A DNA stretch of 64,000 bases from an uncultured Gammaproteobacteria bacterium (GTDB lineage: Bacteria > Patescibacteriota > Patescibacteriia > Magasanikbacterales > GWA2-37-8). Position numbers and translations under genes: made by a program. The notes below the pieces were generated by a model that searched no databases, had not been told where the DNA came from, and worked only from the letters and a program-made list of their open reading frames with translations. The stretch's first letter is position 1. The number at the start of each line of letters is the position of its first letter. The stretch covers positions 129,310 to 193,309 of the forward strand of contig CAZEDL010000001.1 of NCBI GenBank assembly GCA_964510885.1, written 5' to 3'. This document shows positions 3,514 through 58,204 of the stretch, in pieces.

Positions 3514-4542
3514 ATGGAAACTACTGATCTAAAACAAATGCCGCGCCTGACTAGTAATCAAAACCTACGCAATTTTATATACGGAATTGCCGGCCTCTTA
3601 ATCGTAGCAATCGTGGCTGTGGTCGGGACCGGAATCTTCCGAGTCTATCGCCAAGGAGCCACCGATCGTTTCAGCCGCACCGTGGCGAGCGCCTTGCATT
3701 TGCCAATTGCTAAAATCAACGGCGAAACCATTCTCTACAGCGATTATGCGCACGACCTTGAAGCTATTAATCTAAAAAGCGCCTACGATAAATCGCACAA
3801 TGGCCCGACCGCAAATCTTAGCAATGTTGAAAAATCAGACCAAGTATTGTGGCGCCTTAGCAACAACGCGCTTATCGAAGCCAGTGCCAAAAAATATAAT
3901 GTCACCGCTTCTCCTGAAGAGATAAAAGAGATCAGAGAAAAAATTCTGACAAAATTCAATGGCGACGCCGCCGCCGCAGACACCCAATTATCGGCTGAAT
4001 TTGGTTGGAATTTAGCCACCTATGAACAGAAGGTCGTTGTCCCTTATATTCTAGGGAGCAAAATCATAGCCATTCTCGAAACAGAGCCGACCACTCGCAA
4101 CGAAAGCCGTGCCTTGGCCCAAAGCATTCTTGATCAACTCAAAAAAGGAGCTGATTTCGCCGATCTGGCCGCCCGCTATGGCGAGGATGGCAGCGCCGAA
4201 GATGGCGGGGATCTTGGTTGGTTTGGACGCGGAGTGATGGTGCCGCAGTTTGAAACACCGGCCTTTAAACTTAAAAAAGGCGAGCTAAGCCCAGAGTTAG
4301 TTGAAACCACGTATGGGTTTCACATCATTAAAGTCGAAGACACTCGCGTAAATAATGAAAAAGATCCTAAGACCAATAAACCTGTCGGCCAAGAAATAAA
4401 AGGCCGTCATATCCTAATTCGCTTCGCTAGCTTAACCCGCTTTCTAAATGAACAAACTCGCACGGCCGATTTGCACTTATACGTAAATATCCATAATCCA
4501 TTCAAAGAGCCGCCGACCACAACTCCAGCTCCTCAATCCTAA
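3514..4542 (+). CDS. Parvulin-type peptidyl-prolyl cis-trans isomerase (PpiC/PrsA/SurA-like), membrane anchored
   Basis: N-terminal TM segment. C-terminal rotamase domain contains GADFADLAARYGEDGSAEDGGDLGWFGRGVMVPQFE...GFHIIKVED. Confidence 0.8.
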   Translation: METTDLKQMPRLTSNQNLRNFIYGIAGLLIVAIVAVVGTGIFRVYRQGATDRFSRTVASALHLPIAKINGETILYSDYAHDLEAINLKSAYDKSHNGPTANLSNVEKSDQVLWRLSNNALIEASAKKYNVTASPEEIKEIREKILTKFNGDAAAADTQLSAEFGWNLATYEQKVVVPYILGSKIIAILETEPTTRNESRALAQSILDQLKKGADFADLAARYGEDGSAEDGGDLGWFGRGVMVPQFETPAFKLKKGELSPELVETTYGFHIIKVEDTRVNNEKDPKTNKPVGQEIKGRHILIRFASLTRFLNEQTRTADLHLYVNIHNPFKEPPTTTPAPQS

Positions 4543-4565: not shown

Positions 4566-4636
4566 TGCGGGCGTAGTACAATGGTAGTACATTGGCTTCC
4601 CAAGCCAAGGACGTGGGTCCGATTCCCATCGCCCGC
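4566..4636 (+). tRNA. tRNA-Gly (anticodon CCC)
   Basis: GCGGGCGTAGTACAATGGTAGTACATTGGCTTCCCAAGCCAAGGACGTGGGTCCGATTCCCATCGCCCGCT. Cloverleaf with anticodon loop TTCCCAA. Very close to canonical bacterial tRNA-Gly(CCC). Confidence 0.85.
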
Positions 4637-4694
4637 TCAAAAATGAAATAAAATTTGACAACTAAATTAATCTACCGAACTTGATAACTTCCCT

Positions 4695-4818
4695 AATCGG
4701 ACAGGGGGAAGGATTGGGAACCGCCAGGTTCCCACTGCTGCTGGGGAGAGCACACGAGAGGGCGAAAGCCCTTTCGTGAGAGGCACGAAGTGCCGAGTCC
4801 GATTCCCATCGCCCGATC
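4695..4818 (+). ncRNA. Unclassified structured RNA-like element ending in a duplicate of the tRNA-Gly 3-prime end
   Basis: Outer stem ATCGGAC (4695-4701) pairs with GTCCGAT (4796-4802). Inside are three hairpins: GGGAACC-gcca-GGTTCCC, CACGAGAGGGC-GAAA-GCCCTTTCGTG with a GNRA tetraloop, and GGCAC-gaa-GTGCC. The 3-prime 23 nt, GTCCGATTCCCATCGCCCGATCA, repeat tRNA-Gly positions 4616-4638 with one mismatch. A TTGACA hexamer lies upstream at 4655-4660 and a terminator follows immediately. Confidence 0.3.
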
Positions 4819-4822
4819 AAAC

Positions 4823-4858
4823 AAAAAATCTATGCCGTCTGGCATAGATTTTTATTTT
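4823..4858. terminator. Bidirectional intrinsic terminator
   Basis: AAAAAATCTATGCC-gtct-GGCATAGATTTTTATTTT. A perfect 10-bp stem is flanked by an A-run on one side and a T-run on the other. It serves the + strand tRNA/RNA element and the convergent minus-strand gene that ends at 4868. Confidence 0.75.
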
Positions 4859-5661: not shown

Positions 5662-5988
5662 ATGATTGAATCAGACTACGTCCGATTAGTAATTTGCACC
5701 CCAACAACACATGCGGATATCGTACGAAGCGCTCTAGGAGATGCCGGGGCAGGGGAGCAGGGCAACTATAGTCATTGTTCCTCTTCATACCGAAGCACAG
5801 GGCGTTTCATACCGCTAACCGGAGCCGATCCAGCTGTTGGAACCATAGGAGTGCTCGAAACAGTTGCCGAAGAAACAATCGTTACTATTTGTCATAAAGA
5901 CAAGCTAAAAGATGTAATTGCTGCAGTCAAAAAAGTGCACCCTTACGAAGAAGTCCCGATTGACATAATACCTCGTTTTGAGGTATAA
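5662..5988 (+). CDS. Small PII/CutA-like fold protein resembling the inserted domain of NIF3/YqfO-family proteins
   Basis: Motifs AGAGEQGNYSHCSSSYRSTGRFIPLTGADPAVG and HPYEEVPIDIIP. It starts 4 nt after the previous ORF. Confidence 0.5.
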   Translation: MIESDYVRLVICTPTTHADIVRSALGDAGAGEQGNYSHCSSSYRSTGRFIPLTGADPAVGTIGVLETVAEETIVTICHKDKLKDVIAAVKKVHPYEEVPIDIIPRFEV

Positions 5989-6013
5989 CGTGTAAGCCAA
6001 AACGGCCAAATAT

Positions 6014-6086
6014 GCCGCCTTAGCTCAGTTGGTAGAGCGACACATTCGTAACGTGTAGGTCCGGGGTTCGATCCCCCGAGGTGGCT
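6014..6086 (+). tRNA. tRNA-Thr (anticodon CGT)
   Basis: GCCGCCTTAGCTCAGTTGGTAGAGCGACACATTCGTAACGTGTAGGTCCGGGGTTCGATCCCCCGAGGTGGCT. Anticodon loop TTCGTAA. Resembles E. coli tRNA-Thr(CGU). Confidence 0.8.
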
Positions 6087-6100
6087 CGCGTATTATCCAC

Positions 6101-6125
6101 AAACCGACTATAGGTCGGTTTTTTA
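6101..6125 (+). terminator. Intrinsic terminator after tRNA-Thr
   Basis: AACCGAC-tatag-GTCGGTT followed by TTTTT. Confidence 0.7.
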
Positions 6126-6138
6126 ATTATTATTTTAA

Positions 6139-6147
6139 TGCTATAAT
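6139..6147 (+). promoter_or_regulatory. Extended -10 promoter (TGcTATAAT) for ftsEX; near-leaderless
   Basis: TGCTATAAT at 6139-6147. The ftsE ATG lies at 6156, about 9 nt downstream of the -10 element. Confidence 0.4.
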
Positions 6148-6155
6148 GGACATCT

Positions 6156-6836
6156 ATGATAAAGCTGCATGGTGTTTCCAAATTCTATTCTCACAATTCA
6201 GTCGGCCTTCGCGATATTAATCTTGATATCAAAGCCGGAGAATTTGTCTCGGTAGTTGGCCAAAGTGGGGTAGGCAAGACCACTTTCATCAAACTTCTTA
6301 TTGCCGAAGAACGCCCTACCAAGGGTACCATCGAAATCGGCGGCTGGAATATTACCAAAATTAACCGTGATACCATTCCATACCTTCGCCGCCAGATCGG
6401 CGTAATTTTTCAGGATTTTAAATTATTGCCCAAAAAAACCGTGTTTGAAAATGTAGCTTTTGCTCTCGAAGTCGCTGGTGCACCATCCTCGCGAATCAAA
6501 GAAGTTGTCCCAAAAGTTCTTGATATCGTCGGCCTCAGCGGCAAACACCACCGCTTTCCGAACCAGATCTCTGGTGGAGAGCAGCAGCGCGTGGTTATTG
6601 CCCGATCCCTGGTGCATACACCAAAAATTATTGTGGCCGATGAGCCCACTGGCAACCTTGATTCGATTAACACCGAAGAAATTATTTCTATTCTAAAAAA
6701 AATCAACGAATTCGGCACCACGATAGTGCTTGTTACGCATAATCGCGAAGTGGTTAATCACCTACGACGCCGTGTCGTCACCTTGCATGACGGCCAAATT
6801 ATCAATGATAGCCTAGAAGGAAAGTATATCTTATAA
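6156..6836 (+). CDS. ftsE: Cell division ABC ATPase FtsE
   Basis: Walker A GQSGVGKTT, signature ISGGEQQRVVIARSL and Walker B IIVADEPTGNLD. Immediately upstream of the FtsX-like permease. Confidence 0.85.
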   Translation: MIKLHGVSKFYSHNSVGLRDINLDIKAGEFVSVVGQSGVGKTTFIKLLIAEERPTKGTIEIGGWNITKINRDTIPYLRRQIGVIFQDFKLLPKKTVFENVAFALEVAGAPSSRIKEVVPKVLDIVGLSGKHHRFPNQISGGEQQRVVIARSLVHTPKIIVADEPTGNLDSINTEEIISILKKINEFGTTIVLVTHNREVVNHLRRRVVTLHDGQIINDSLEGKYIL

Positions 6837-17902: not shown

Positions 17903-17936
17903 TTGGCCTCACTTGTTACCTGCAGTTACCACCGTC

Positions 17937-17986
17937 GACTCATTTCACAATCAATCCATGTCATTCCTGACCAGGATCAGGAATCC
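17937..17986 (+). repeat. GTCATTCC-palindrome repeat unit, copy 1
   Basis: CTCATTTCACAATCAATCCATGTCATTCCTGACCAGGATCAGGAATCCAC is 47/50 identical to the reverse complement of 53461-53510. It has an internal hairpin GTCATTCCTGA/TCAGGAATC. Confidence 0.7.
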
Positions 17987-18161
17987 ACAGTTAAAATTTT
18001 TAATTTTCAATTAAAGAATCACTGGGCGACACCATCATTAAAAATTGTAAATTGTATTTATTGACCGAAGGGAAACTAATTGAAAATCATATCTGATACC
18101 ATGTGGATTGTGGATTCCTCCGACTGAGTTGGGAGGATGAGAGTTTTAACATGACTTTTAT

Positions 18162-45706: not shown

Positions 45707-45769
45707 TTACGCGTTATAACTTTTCCCTTTGGTAACCAAACGCATTCAGGGGAAAGTTATAACGCGTAA
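45707..45769. repeat. 21-bp near-perfect inverted repeat with 21-nt spacer
   Basis: TTACGCGTTATAACTTTTCCC ... GGGGAAAGTTATAACGCGTAA gives one G-T equivalent position. The spacer contains TTTGG-TAA-CCAAA. No following U-tract. Confidence 0.7.
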
Positions 45770-53389: not shown

Positions 53390-53402
53390 TTACTATGAGC
53401 AA

Positions 53403-53510
53403 TCTCAAACTTGTCATTCCCGCGCAGCAGCGGGAATGCATTCGCTCATTTTATGAGTAAAGTGTGCATTCCTGATCCTGGTCAGGAATGACACGGATTG
53501 ATTTTGAAAT
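53403..53510. repeat. Composite palindrome of two GTCATTCC...GGAATG(C/A) units
   Basis: Unit B1 is GTCATTCCCGCGCAGCAGCGGGAATGCATTCGCTCATTTT. Unit B2 at 53461-53510 is the reverse complement of the 17937-17986 unit (47/50). The two units face each other across CTCATTTTATGAG. Confidence 0.7.
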
Positions 53511-53558
53511 GAGTTAAATGACACGAATTAATTTTGACAAGAATTCTATACACACATT

Positions 53559-57928: not shown

Positions 57929-58125
57929 CTGTCATTCCGACCGGGCACAGCCACGAGCCTGCCTGCGGAGCGAATAATCTCTGTCGAATTTAGGAACACA
58001 TATCCAGTTACCGCATAATCACCGCTCTGTCATCCTGAGTGAAACGAAGGATCCCTTGGCGATGGTGATGAGTGGAATTCTCCGCTCCGCTCAGAATGAC
58101 AAGTGGGAACATATGAACCAGCTCT
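57929..58125. repeat. Intergenic block with GTCATTCC-family palindromic units
   Basis: CTGTCATTCCGACCGGGCAC at 57930-49. TGTCATCCTGAG (58028-39) pairs with CTCAGAATGACA (58090-101) across a ~50-nt spacer. CTTGTCATTC is shared with unit B1. Confidence 0.55.
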
Positions 58126-58146
58126 AATTATTCATTAAATACTCTT

Positions 58147-58184
58147 AAAAAATAAAACCTCCCTCAGCATCAACCAAGGGAGAT
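58147..58184 (-). terminator. Intrinsic terminator of proS (minus strand)
   Basis: On the minus strand: CTCCCT-12 nt-AGGGAG followed by a U-run, which is the plus-strand A-run at 58147-58157. Confidence 0.6.
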
Positions 58185-58204
58185 TTAATTGTACTAAGCT
58201 TGGA

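What the first reader, a model, noticed from the sequence alone, without database searches (positions are those of the whole stretch)
17937..17986. Near-identical 50-nt palindromic repeat present in opposite orientation 35 kb apart
17937-17986 and the reverse complement of 53461-53510 match at 47 of 50 positions. Each carries an internal hairpin GTCATTCCTGA-ccagga-TCAGGAATC and a CTCATTT flank. Both copies are intergenic: mreC/mreD-like here, and ABC-2 permease/ABC ATPase at the second locus. This conservation in non-coding DNA of a compact genome suggests a mobile MITE/REP-like element or a shared regulatory site.
Basis: seen in the sequence. Interest (0 to 1): 0.6.

Follow-up and report, generated by a model that had tools for sequence, protein, structure and literature searches.

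The report
Small hairpin DNA repeat, known class
Two near-identical 55-base stretches between genes of a tiny-genome (Patescibacteria) bacterium are copies of a small hairpin-forming DNA repeat of the NTS / Ssn-related class described in 2025, so this is a new example of a known kind of repeat and not a new kind of element.

Summary
The repeat is real. 17938-17992 (+) and 53460-53514 (-) match at 51 of 55 positions, and the 25-nt core is identical. It is the longest repeat in the window and never arises in shuffles. The core, T-GTCATTCC-TGAC-CAG-GATCA-GGAATC-CA, has the head and tail of the Neisseria NTS (CGTCATTCC...GGAATCYRG, an extension of dRS3). The NTS is the ssDNA hairpin bound and cut by the small GIY-YIG nuclease SsnA (Chenal 2025). 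The same core occurs in 41 genome stretches from about ten phyla. There, positions I did not specify show the NTS tail: C at +1 in 42 of 47. The window holds at least four clear hairpins of this class and three probable ones. All lie in three unusually long intergenic gaps, as head-out convergent pairs. The mreC|mreD junction is 259 nt here but 3-24 nt in five relatives. The nearest relative carries a doublet at a junction that is empty here. Only the two reported copies share a further 22-nt 5' flank, which I found nowhere else. No ssn gene, transposase, TSD or terminator tail was found in the window, and the rest of the genome could not be read. Verdict: a new member of a known repeat class. 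The Ssn link is inferred.

The parts
17938..17992 (+). Copy A of the 55-nt repeat unit: a 22-nt lineage-specific 5' flank (ACTCATTTCACAATCAATCCAT), the class hairpin, and the tail CCACAGTT.
   Evidence: (I1)
17960..17986 (+). Core hairpin A: GTCATTCC-TGAC-CAG-GATCA-GGAATCC. It has the NTS-type head and tail, an 8-bp stem, and C directly after the palindrome.
   Evidence: (I8)
53460..53514 (-). Copy B of the 55-nt repeat unit, 51/55 identical to A.
   Evidence: identical in an independent Logan contig L044
53466..53492 (-). Core hairpin B: GTCATTCCTGACCAGGATCAGGAATGC. It has a 9-bp stem, and G instead of C directly after GGAAT.
   Evidence: (I3)
53517..53545 (-). Tandem half-copy of the B 5' flank, ending in ...CGTGTCATT, 83% identical to 53487-53515. 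No hairpin follows it.
   Evidence: D1
53413..53439 (+). Hairpin C: GTCATTCCCGCGCAGCAGCGGGAATGC, with a canonical NTS-like CCCGC stem. It is the convergent partner of B, with 26 nt between the annotated ends. A hairpin of the same class lies just 3' of the same permease stop codon in relative L045.
   Evidence: (I1, I2)
18107..18141 (-). Hairpin D: CTCATCCTCCCAACTCAGTCGGAGGAATCCACAAT. It has a degenerate head and the full lineage-typical tail. It is the convergent partner of A and is close in sequence to the L045 hairpin at 3553-3584.
   Evidence: (I3)
17903..18161 (.). Expanded mreC|mreD spacer, 259 nt. The same junction is 3-24 nt in five related contigs.
53390..53558 (.). Expanded permease|ATPase spacer, 169 nt. 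It is 17 nt on a more distant relative's contig.
57931..57979 (+). Probable class hairpin F: GTCATTCCGA[24-nt internal segment]GCGGAGCGAATAATC. Weak fold, low confidence.
58029..58054 (+). Probable class hairpin G: GTCATCCTGAGTGAAACGAAGGATCC. This is the subtype that flanks a GIY-YIG gene in L031. Its Watson-Crick fold is weak.
   Evidence: (I1)
58074..58100 (-). Probable class hairpin E: GTCATTCTGAGCGGAGCGGAGAATTCC. It is the convergent partner of G, with 28-nt arms 75% complementary.

Best explanation
A and B are two copies of a lineage-specific 55-nt repeat unit. Its functional core is an oriented single-strand DNA hairpin of the NTS / Ssn-related-motif class, the class that includes the Neisseria dRS3/NTS repeats. 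The published mechanism for this class (PMC11893778) is as follows. When DNA is single-stranded, as in replication, uptake or repair, one strand folds into the hairpin. A roughly 94-aa single-domain GIY-YIG nuclease (Ssn) binds the hairpin through the stem sequence and the C just 3' of it, then nicks a few nucleotides 5' of the GTCAT head. In Neisseria this modulates integration of transforming DNA. ssn genes are typically flanked by the motif, like an insertion sequence. I infer that this Patescibacteria lineage was colonised by such hairpins, which spread into intergenic junctions. They mostly form head-out convergent doublets and have expanded three otherwise tight junctions in this window. 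A and B arose recently from one source by copying of a 'flank plus hairpin' module, through nick-dependent copying or recombination at hairpins, as proposed for the Neisseria intergenic mosaic elements. SHOWN: the repeat; its fold; its class head and tail; its distribution across phyla with conservation at positions I did not specify; its restriction to intergenic DNA; the doublet architecture; presence/absence against relatives; and a GIY-YIG gene flanked by class hairpins in one fetched genome. INFERRED: that this genome encodes a cognate Ssn, that A and B are cut by it, and how the copies spread.
For: Class identity. A matches the published NTS consensus CGTCATTCCCGCGMAVGCGGGAATCYRG at 16 of the 18 outer positions: GTCATTCC 8/8, GGAATC 6/6, then Y and R. 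The inner stem differs but still pairs. Family behaviour. The scan GTCATTCCTGA-N6-TCAGGAAT found 41 stretches in Parcubacteria, Saccharibacteria, Dojkabacteria, Microgenomates, Desulfobacterales, Cyclobacteriaceae, Flavobacteriales, Pseudomonadales, Acidobacteriota and others. About 4 hits are expected by chance for 19 specified bases. In 47 distinct hits the unspecified positions are conserved: +1 C 42/47, +2 C/T 45/47, loop position 1 C 35/47, position 5 G 41/47, position 6 A 35/47. That reproduces the NTS tail. Structure. 21 other GTCATTCC...GGAAT hits in the fetched loci carry different stems, yet 13/21 keep at least 2 inner pairs against about 7% for shuffled inners, and 19/21 have C at +1. 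Lineage consensus. A, D and three hairpins of the nearest relative share TGTCATTCC...GGAATCCACAAT. Location. All four exact GTCATTCC occurrences in the window lie in the roughly 7.5% that is intergenic. Gain and loss. mreC|mreD is 259 nt here against 24, 9, 8, 3 and 3 nt in relatives. ATPase|GT2 overlaps by 8 nt here but holds a head-out doublet flush with both stop codons in L045. The third filled gap is 276 nt here against 82 nt without class hairpins in L045. Doublets. 16 of 43 scanned hairpins have an inverted head within 250 nt downstream, against 6 upstream. Enzyme link. In L031 a 109-aa GIY-YIG protein (PF01541) is flanked by four GTCATCCTGAGCG... hairpins arranged as two convergent pairs. 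This is the architecture described in the paper. Patescibacteria are reported to carry GIY-YIG genes and competence machinery.
Against: A, B and C all fail the paper's published degenerate SRM search string, because the inner stem is CCTGA rather than CCVSBR. B and C have G, not C, directly after GGAAT, and that C was the position most critical for SsnA binding in Neisseria. No GIY-YIG gene or gene remnant is in the 64-kb window, nor in the roughly 60 kb fetched from relatives (for L042-L045; L083-L085, about 39 kb of it, by their precomputed Pfam gene tables only). No gene family recurs next to the TGA-stem hairpins across the 41 loci. Only 2 copies of the 55-nt unit and about 7 class hairpins could be counted, because the rest of the genome was not retrievable. 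The partner arms C and D are unlike each other, so the doublet is not the unit that was copied, and the copying mechanism is unknown. The relatives are only 65-80% identical in protein, so the presence/absence differences are between genera, not between strains.
Confidence: 0.6

Rival explanations
1. The hairpins act mainly at the RNA level as operon punctuation: 3'-end stabilisers, attenuators or processing sites that tune the relative expression of mreC versus mreD-PBP2 and of permease versus ATPase. On this view the A/B similarity reflects selection for one RNA-binding factor.
For: Class hairpins in relative L045 sit 5-8 nt after stop codons in the sense orientation of the upstream gene. 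A and C are in the sense orientation downstream of mreC and of the permease. E. coli REPs are known to stabilise upstream mRNA (established knowledge).
Against: B is antisense to the surrounding operon. No T-run follows A or B, and the terminator scan does not call them. The junctions are tight, with no hairpin, in five relatives, so no conserved regulatory need is evident. Nothing in Rfam matches. SsnA does not bind the RNA form of the NTS. This reading also does not explain the 22-nt shared flank.
Confidence: 0.15
2. They are REP/REPIN-type elements mobilised by a RAYT (a Y1 HUH transposase of the IS200/IS605 superfamily), not by a GIY-YIG nuclease.
For: They are short, oriented, extragenic palindromes occurring as inverted doublets in intergenic DNA. 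This is the REP/BIME/REPIN pattern (Ton-Hoang 2012, cited).
Against: The head is GTCAT, not the GTAG or CGTC tag of REP superfamilies (my own knowledge of Di Nocera 2013; sequence). The two arms of each doublet are different sequences, unlike REPINs. No Y1_Tnp hit appeared among the 20 small or mid-sized window ORFs scanned. The motif matches the experimentally defined Ssn target instead.
Confidence: 0.08
3. They are recombination targets (att-like sites) for an integrase or IS110-family recombinase of a phage or IS, as dRS3 is for the Neisseria filamentous prophage recombinase. A and B would then be scars or target sites, not mobile units.
For: dRS3 is reported as the target of a specific phage recombinase (Introduction of PMC11893778). 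At B there is a half-copy of the flank ending exactly in GTCATT, next to a full unit, which could be a recombination scar.
Against: No integrase, IS or prophage genes lie next to either copy. The viral-contig scan for the core found nothing. Synteny on both sides of A and B is the same as in the relative.
Confidence: 0.07
4. It is a segmental duplication or a chance similarity.
For: Only two copies of the 55-nt unit were found in all sequence available.
Against: The flanking genes are unrelated (MreC/MreD versus ABC-2/ABC ATPase). Similarity ends sharply at 55 nt. There were 0 chance matches in shuffles.
Confidence: 0.01

Closest known systems
NTS (Neisseria Transformation Sequence) and Ssn-related motifs (SRM), the ssDNA hairpins cut by SsnA-family GIY-YIG nucleases (Chenal et al., Nat Commun 2025, PMC11893778)
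   Same: The head GTCATTCC and the tail GGAATC-Y-R are identical. Both are oriented semi-palindromes with a variable inner stem. Both are intergenic and multi-copy, occur across many phyla, and cluster in pairs. A small GIY-YIG gene is flanked by the motif in one fetched genome (L031).
   Different: The inner stem is CCTGAC...GATCAGG, with a conserved unpaired A, instead of CCCGCG...CGCGGG, so A/B fail the published SRM search string. B lacks the C directly after GGAAT. No ssn gene was seen in the window. The host is a Patescibacteria MAG, a group not mentioned in the paper's main text. A and B also share a 22-nt 5' flank that is not part of the NTS.
Neisseria dRS3 repeats and neisserial intergenic mosaic elements (NIMEs)
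   Same: Both have an ATTCC...GGAAT palindrome core. Short lineage-specific repeat segments are bounded by the hairpins, giving mosaic intergenic arrays. The B locus is of this kind: half-flank, full flank, hairpin, spacer, second hairpin.
   Different: dRS3 is defined as ATTCCC-N8-GGGAAT. A/B are ATTCCT...AGGAAT, and C has N10. Copy number here is small, and the organism is unrelated.
REP / BIME / REPIN elements with RAYT transposases
   Same: All are extragenic palindromes of 20-40 nt that occur as inverted doublets and sit close to gene ends. A domesticated, hairpin-specific ssDNA enzyme is thought to maintain them.
   Different: There is no GTAG or CGTC tag. The doublet arms are not copies of each other. 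No Y1 transposase was found. The head and tail match the target of a GIY-YIG nuclease.
MITEs
   Same: Both are small, non-coding and repeated, and are present or absent at orthologous sites.
   Different: There are no terminal inverted repeats at the unit ends, no target-site duplication, and no related autonomous IS.

Membership tests
NTS / Ssn-related motif (SRM) | An oriented hairpin with the conserved unpaired 5' head (C)GTCAT directly before the palindrome | tested here: met
   A, B and C carry exact GTCATTCC followed by an 8-9 bp stem. D has the degenerate head CTCATCC.
NTS / Ssn-related motif (SRM) | C immediately 3' of the palindrome and the tail C-Y-R-G; this C is the nucleotide most critical for binding in Neisseria | tested here: inconclusive
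   A has GGAAT-CCAC, so C, Y and R are met and G is not. D has GGAAT-CCAC. B and C have GGAAT-GCA, so G is at +1, although the palindrome is then 1 bp longer and is followed by C. Across genomes the TGA-stem family has C at +1 in 42/47.
NTS / Ssn-related motif (SRM) | A match to the published degenerate search string HGTCWYN(0-2)YYVSBRHN(0-5)WNVSBRGN(0-2)RNCYNB | tested here: not met
   The regex was run on the window and all loci. A, B and C do not match. Two of the three hairpins in relative L045 do.
NTS / Ssn-related motif (SRM) | A cognate single-domain GIY-YIG (cd10448) ssn gene in the genome, typically flanked by the motif | tested here: inconclusive
   None is in the 64-kb window: Pfam on 20 small or mid-sized ORFs, jackhmmer over all ORFs of at least 45 aa, and tblastn for remnants. 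The rest of the 400,724-nt source contig could not be fetched. The architecture was confirmed in L031.
NTS / Ssn-related motif (SRM) | Many copies per genome, enriched over shuffled sequence | not testable with these tools
   Only 64 kb of the source is available. It holds 4 clear and 3 probable hairpins, all intergenic. The nearest relative has 3 in 10 kb, and more distant relatives have 0 in 39 kb.
NTS / Ssn-related motif (SRM) | Strand-specific binding and cleavage by Ssn as ssDNA, a few nucleotides 5' of the motif | not testable with these tools
   This needs a biochemical assay (describes it).
Neisseria dRS3 | The exact 20-bp palindrome ATTCCC-N8-GGGAAT | tested here: not met
   A and B are ATTCCT-N10-AGGAAT. 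C is ATTCCC-N10-GGGAAT.
REP / REPIN (RAYT-associated) | A GTAG or CGTC tetranucleotide tag at one end of the palindrome | tested here: not met
   The head is GTCAT in all clear members. The tag definition comes from my own knowledge of Di Nocera et al. 2013.
REP / REPIN (RAYT-associated) | A RAYT (Y1_Tnp) gene flanked by the repeats | tested here: inconclusive
   There was no Y1_Tnp hit among the 20 window ORFs scanned. The whole genome is not available.
MITE | Terminal inverted repeats at the element ends plus a target-site duplication | tested here: not met
   The ends of the 55-nt unit (ACTCATTT... / ...CACAGTT) are not inverted repeats. The flanks are GTCG/AAAA at A and TTTA/TACT at B, so there is no shared duplication.
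Intrinsic terminator | A G+C-rich stem followed by a T-run | tested here: not met
   A and B are not called by the scan and have no T tail.

The most novel reading that the evidence does not exclude
The CCTGAC-NNN-GATCAGG-stem hairpin may mark a distinct, so far uncharacterised specificity class of the Ssn system. It fails the published SRM search string but keeps the NTS head and tail, and it recurs almost unchanged in about ten phyla, including several Patescibacteria lineages. This class would have spread horizontally into ultra-small, naturally competent Patescibacteria. There, 'flank plus hairpin' modules are still being copied, and they could serve as self-marks that control which incoming single-stranded DNA gets integrated.
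Probability: 0.25. Interest if true: 0.55.

Novelty: new member of a known kind. Interest (0 to 1): 0.3.

Why it matters
There are three modest reasons.

1. It places a raw-sequence oddity in a class with a known enzyme partner. That gives a concrete, testable prediction: a small GIY-YIG gene should lie elsewhere in this MAG and should cut the A strand as ssDNA.

2. Ssn nucleases are being developed as site-specific ssDNA tools. A widespread hairpin variant with a different stem would point to enzymes with a new specificity.

3. It affects annotation of streamlined Patescibacteria genomes. These hairpins explain unusually long spacers inside otherwise tight operons. They also generate spurious small ORFs, such as 17903-18064.

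None of this would surprise a specialist in bacterial repeats.

Tried and rejected
- Rfam. The gathering-threshold scan of the whole window found only 4 tRNAs. Permissive scans of both spacers gave only chance miRNA/snoRNA hits.
- Literature search by sequence and pseudo-peptide strings (GTCATTCC, IPAFAGMT and others) returned only primers. The useful paper came from searching dRS3. Its supplements are not held, and no follow-up papers on mobility were found.
- The viral-contig scan for the core gave 0 hits.
- The metagenome scan with the A/B-specific flank (AATCAATCCNTGTCATTCC) gave 37 hits. All were chance matches or an unrelated conserved coding sequence, so the 22-nt flank was found nowhere else.
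- BLAST of the consensus hairpin against plasmids gave only chance matches inside coding genes.
- Fetching the source contig failed. Exact-protein look-ups for MreC did not find it. The permease look-up gave only an identical 1.8-kb Logan contig.
- A search for a gene family recurring next to the TGA-stem hairpins across 41 loci found none in more than 3 loci.
- The inversion hypothesis (A and B as inverted repeats flipping the 35-kb segment) was rejected. Gene order on both sides of A and B matches the relative.
- Considered but not done. I did not build a covariance model of the class, because the training set would be dominated by the stem I had searched for. I ran no further search on a GIY-YIG query, because the top-120 listing was unlikely to reach this lineage.

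Full report
OBSERVATION. I read both sites directly and aligned them. A whole-window repeat search ranks the pair first. 17938-17992 (+) against 53460-53514 (-) is 55 nt and 93% complementary, and nothing else in the 64 kb comes close. The 25-nt core GTCATTCCTGACCAGGATCAGGAAT is identical in both copies. It has no third match at up to 3 mismatches and none in 100 shuffles. The four differences all lie outside the core. The correct partner of 17937-17986 is 53466-53515, at 46/50. The core folds as an 8-9 bp hairpin on either strand. The 55-nt unit as a whole is oriented, not palindromic.

CONTEXT AND SOURCE. Pfam confirms MreB, MreC and PBP2 around copy A, and two ABC-2 permeases, an ABC ATPase and a GT2 glycosyltransferase around copy B. 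The 181-aa ORF after copy A aligns from its first residue with the protein in the MreD position of a relative. MreC homologues that carry a source name come from Patescibacteria/Magasanikbacteria MAGs. The 100%-identical database entries sit on a 400,724-nt NCBI contig, which I could not retrieve. An independent 1.8-kb Logan contig is identical across locus B. The window is about 45% G+C and about 92% coding.

WHAT THE CORE IS. One scan of 185,579 species-representative genomes for GTCATTCCTGA-N6-TCAGGAAT returned 41 stretches. They come from Parcubacteria, Saccharibacteria, Dojkabacteria (at least 11 copies on four contigs), Microgenomates, Desulfobacterales, Cyclobacteriaceae, Flavobacteriales, Pseudomonadales, Acidobacteriota and others. 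For 19 specified bases about 4 hits are expected by chance.

The positions I left free are conserved across the 47 distinct hits:
- the base after GGAAT is C in 42/47;
- the next base is C or T in 45/47, usually followed by A-G;
- the loop reads C-NNN-G-A.

A literature search on dRS3 led to Chenal et al. 2025 (PMC11893778). They define the Neisseria Transformation Sequence CGTCATTCCCGCGMAVGCGGGAATCYRG, which extends the classical dRS3 palindrome. They show that a 94-aa single-domain GIY-YIG nuclease, SsnA, binds it only as ssDNA and only on one strand, and cuts a few nucleotides upstream. They also report that related 'SRM' hairpins flank ssn genes in many phyla.

Copy A matches that consensus at 16 of its 18 outer positions. 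The inner stem differs but still pairs. Other GTCATTCC...GGAAT hairpins in the fetched loci have yet other stems. Of these, 13/21 keep at least 2 inner pairs against about 7% when the inner sequence is shuffled, and 19/21 have C at +1. The class is therefore defined by a fixed head, a fixed tail and a variable paired middle. In one fetched locus (L031, Acidobacteriota) a 109-aa GIY-YIG protein (PF01541) is flanked by four GTCATCCTGAGCG... hairpins forming two head-out convergent pairs. This reproduces the architecture described in the paper.

MORE MEMBERS IN THE WINDOW. Searching for the head and tail separately showed that each reported copy has a partner of the same class but of different sequence, in the same spacer and in convergent orientation.
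- Hairpin C (53413-53439, +, GTCATTCCCGCGCAGCAGCGGGAATGC) lies 26 nt from B.
- Hairpin D (18107-18141, -, CTCATCCTCCCAACTCAGTCGGAGGAATCCACAAT) faces A.
- A third long gap (57929-58204) holds three probable members, F, G and E. Their heads and tails fit the class, but their Watson-Crick folds are weak.

An alignment of A, B, C, D and the three hairpins of the nearest relative gives a lineage consensus TGTCATTCC-[stem-loop-stem]-GGAATCCACAAT. All four exact GTCATTCC octamers in the window lie in the roughly 7.5% that is intergenic. Convergent pairing is common in the class generally. Of 43 scanned hairpins, 16 have an inverted head within 250 nt downstream and 6 have one upstream, against an expectation of under 2.

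GAIN AND LOSS.
- The mreC|mreD junction is 259 nt in the window. It is 24, 9, 8, 3 and 3 nt in five related contigs.
- The permease|ATPase junction is 169 nt here and 17 nt in a more distant relative. In the nearest relative (GCA_964640395.1; ATPase 80% identical) a hairpin of the C type lies just 3' of the same permease stop codon (8 nt after it, against 23 nt for C here), and a ddl gene has been inserted.
- Conversely, ATPase and GT2 overlap by 8 nt here, while the relative has a 93-nt gap filled by a head-out doublet flush with both stop codons.
- The third filled gap is 276 nt here and 82 nt, without class hairpins, in the relative.
- More distant relatives have no class hairpins in 39 kb.

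These hairpins therefore come and go at gene junctions in this lineage. The comparison is between genomes only 65-80% identical in protein, not between strains.

WHAT IS SPECIAL ABOUT A AND B. Only these two share the same stem and a further 22 nt on the 5' side (ACTCATTTCAMAATCAATCCRT). That flank was found nowhere else: not in the other window hairpins, not in any fetched locus, and not in JGI metagenomes. Next to B there is a tandem half-copy of the flank that ends exactly in ...GTCATT. In other genomes the same core is likewise embedded in longer genome-specific repeat units (L005, L009/L026/L030, L035). 'Common hairpin plus private flank' is thus the usual form, and it recalls the Neisseria mosaic elements. 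Because the partner arms C and D differ, the unit that was copied is the flank-plus-hairpin module, not the doublet. I found no target-site duplication.

MECHANISM. The best-supported reading is that the core is an Ssn-type ssDNA recognition hairpin, and that A and B are recent copies of one module. The sequence-level class assignment is shown. The existence of a cognate nuclease in this genome, cleavage of A or B, and the route of copying are all inferred.

Several points count against full membership:
- A, B and C fail the published SRM search string.
- B and C have G at the position where Neisseria SsnA needs C.
- No GIY-YIG gene or remnant is in the window.
- No gene family recurs beside the TGA-stem hairpins.

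Patescibacteria are reported to carry GIY-YIG genes and DNA-uptake machinery, so the inference is plausible but untested.

RIVALS.
- An RNA-level role is possible as a side effect: class hairpins in the relative sit just after stop codons. It does not explain B's antisense orientation, the lack of a T-run or the tight junctions in relatives.
- REP/RAYT is unlikely. The tag is wrong, the doublet arms are unlike, and no Y1 transposase was found.
- A recombinase target site, as dRS3 is for a Neisseria phage, cannot be excluded, but no such gene is nearby.
- Segmental duplication and chance are excluded.

VERDICT. The interpretation 'REP-like repeat' is right in spirit, 'MITE' and 'regulatory site' are not supported, and the element belongs to a class described in 2025. 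It is a new member of that class, with a variant stem, in a phylum the paper's main text does not discuss. Interest is modest.

Noticed in passing
window 4617-4649 and 4797-4829: A 33-nt direct repeat, 88% identical. The first copy is the 3' end of tRNA-Gly(CCC) (4567-4638) plus downstream bases. The second lies 180 nt further on. It looks like the attL/attR scar of a small or decayed element integrated at the tRNA gene.
   Followed up: no
window 45707-45769: A 22-nt inverted repeat, 95% complementary, with a 19-nt spacer (TTACGCGTTATAACTTTTCCCT / AGGGGAAAGTTATAACGCGTAA). It lies in the 104-nt gap between two + strand genes and is unrelated to the GTCAT class. It could be a terminator or a protein-binding site (I11).
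   Followed up: no
window 57929-58204: A third long intergenic gap holds three probable class hairpins of a GAGCG-type subtype (F, G, E). Their stems would need G.A mismatches, and F carries a 24-nt internal segment.
   Followed up: partly
L045 1510-2517: In the nearest relative a D-Ala-D-Ala ligase gene sits between the ABC-2 permease and its ATPase, directly after a class hairpin. The window has no gene there.
   Followed up: no
L045 7087-7168: The relative's spacer, orthologous to the window's third locus, holds a different palindrome made of GATACACGATAC / GTATCGTGTATC units instead of GTCAT hairpins.
   Followed up: no
L030 (Dojkabacteria WJKM01000017.1) 3986-4155 and 5948-6333: TGA-stem hairpins occur head-to-tail with a 45-nt period (25-nt hairpin plus a 20-nt fixed spacer), inside longer conserved units. 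There are at least 11 copies on four contigs of one MAG.
   Followed up: partly
L018 2240-2262 and 2784-2806: A 124-aa GIY-YIG gene in a Cyclobacteriaceae genome is flanked on both sides by direct copies of GAACGTCATGCCAYGGATC. This may be its own cognate motif, with the head GTCATGCC.
   Followed up: no
window 17903-18064: A 53-aa ORF runs through hairpin A. It has no Pfam match and is most likely spurious. Hairpins of this class can produce such artefactual ORFs.
   Followed up: partly
window 18150-18155 (-) and 17939-17946 (+): A second, degenerate head-like motif precedes the real head: GTCATG 14 nt before D's head, and CTCATTTC 21 nt before the heads of A and B. The 5' flanks may therefore be collapsed older hairpins.
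   Followed up: no
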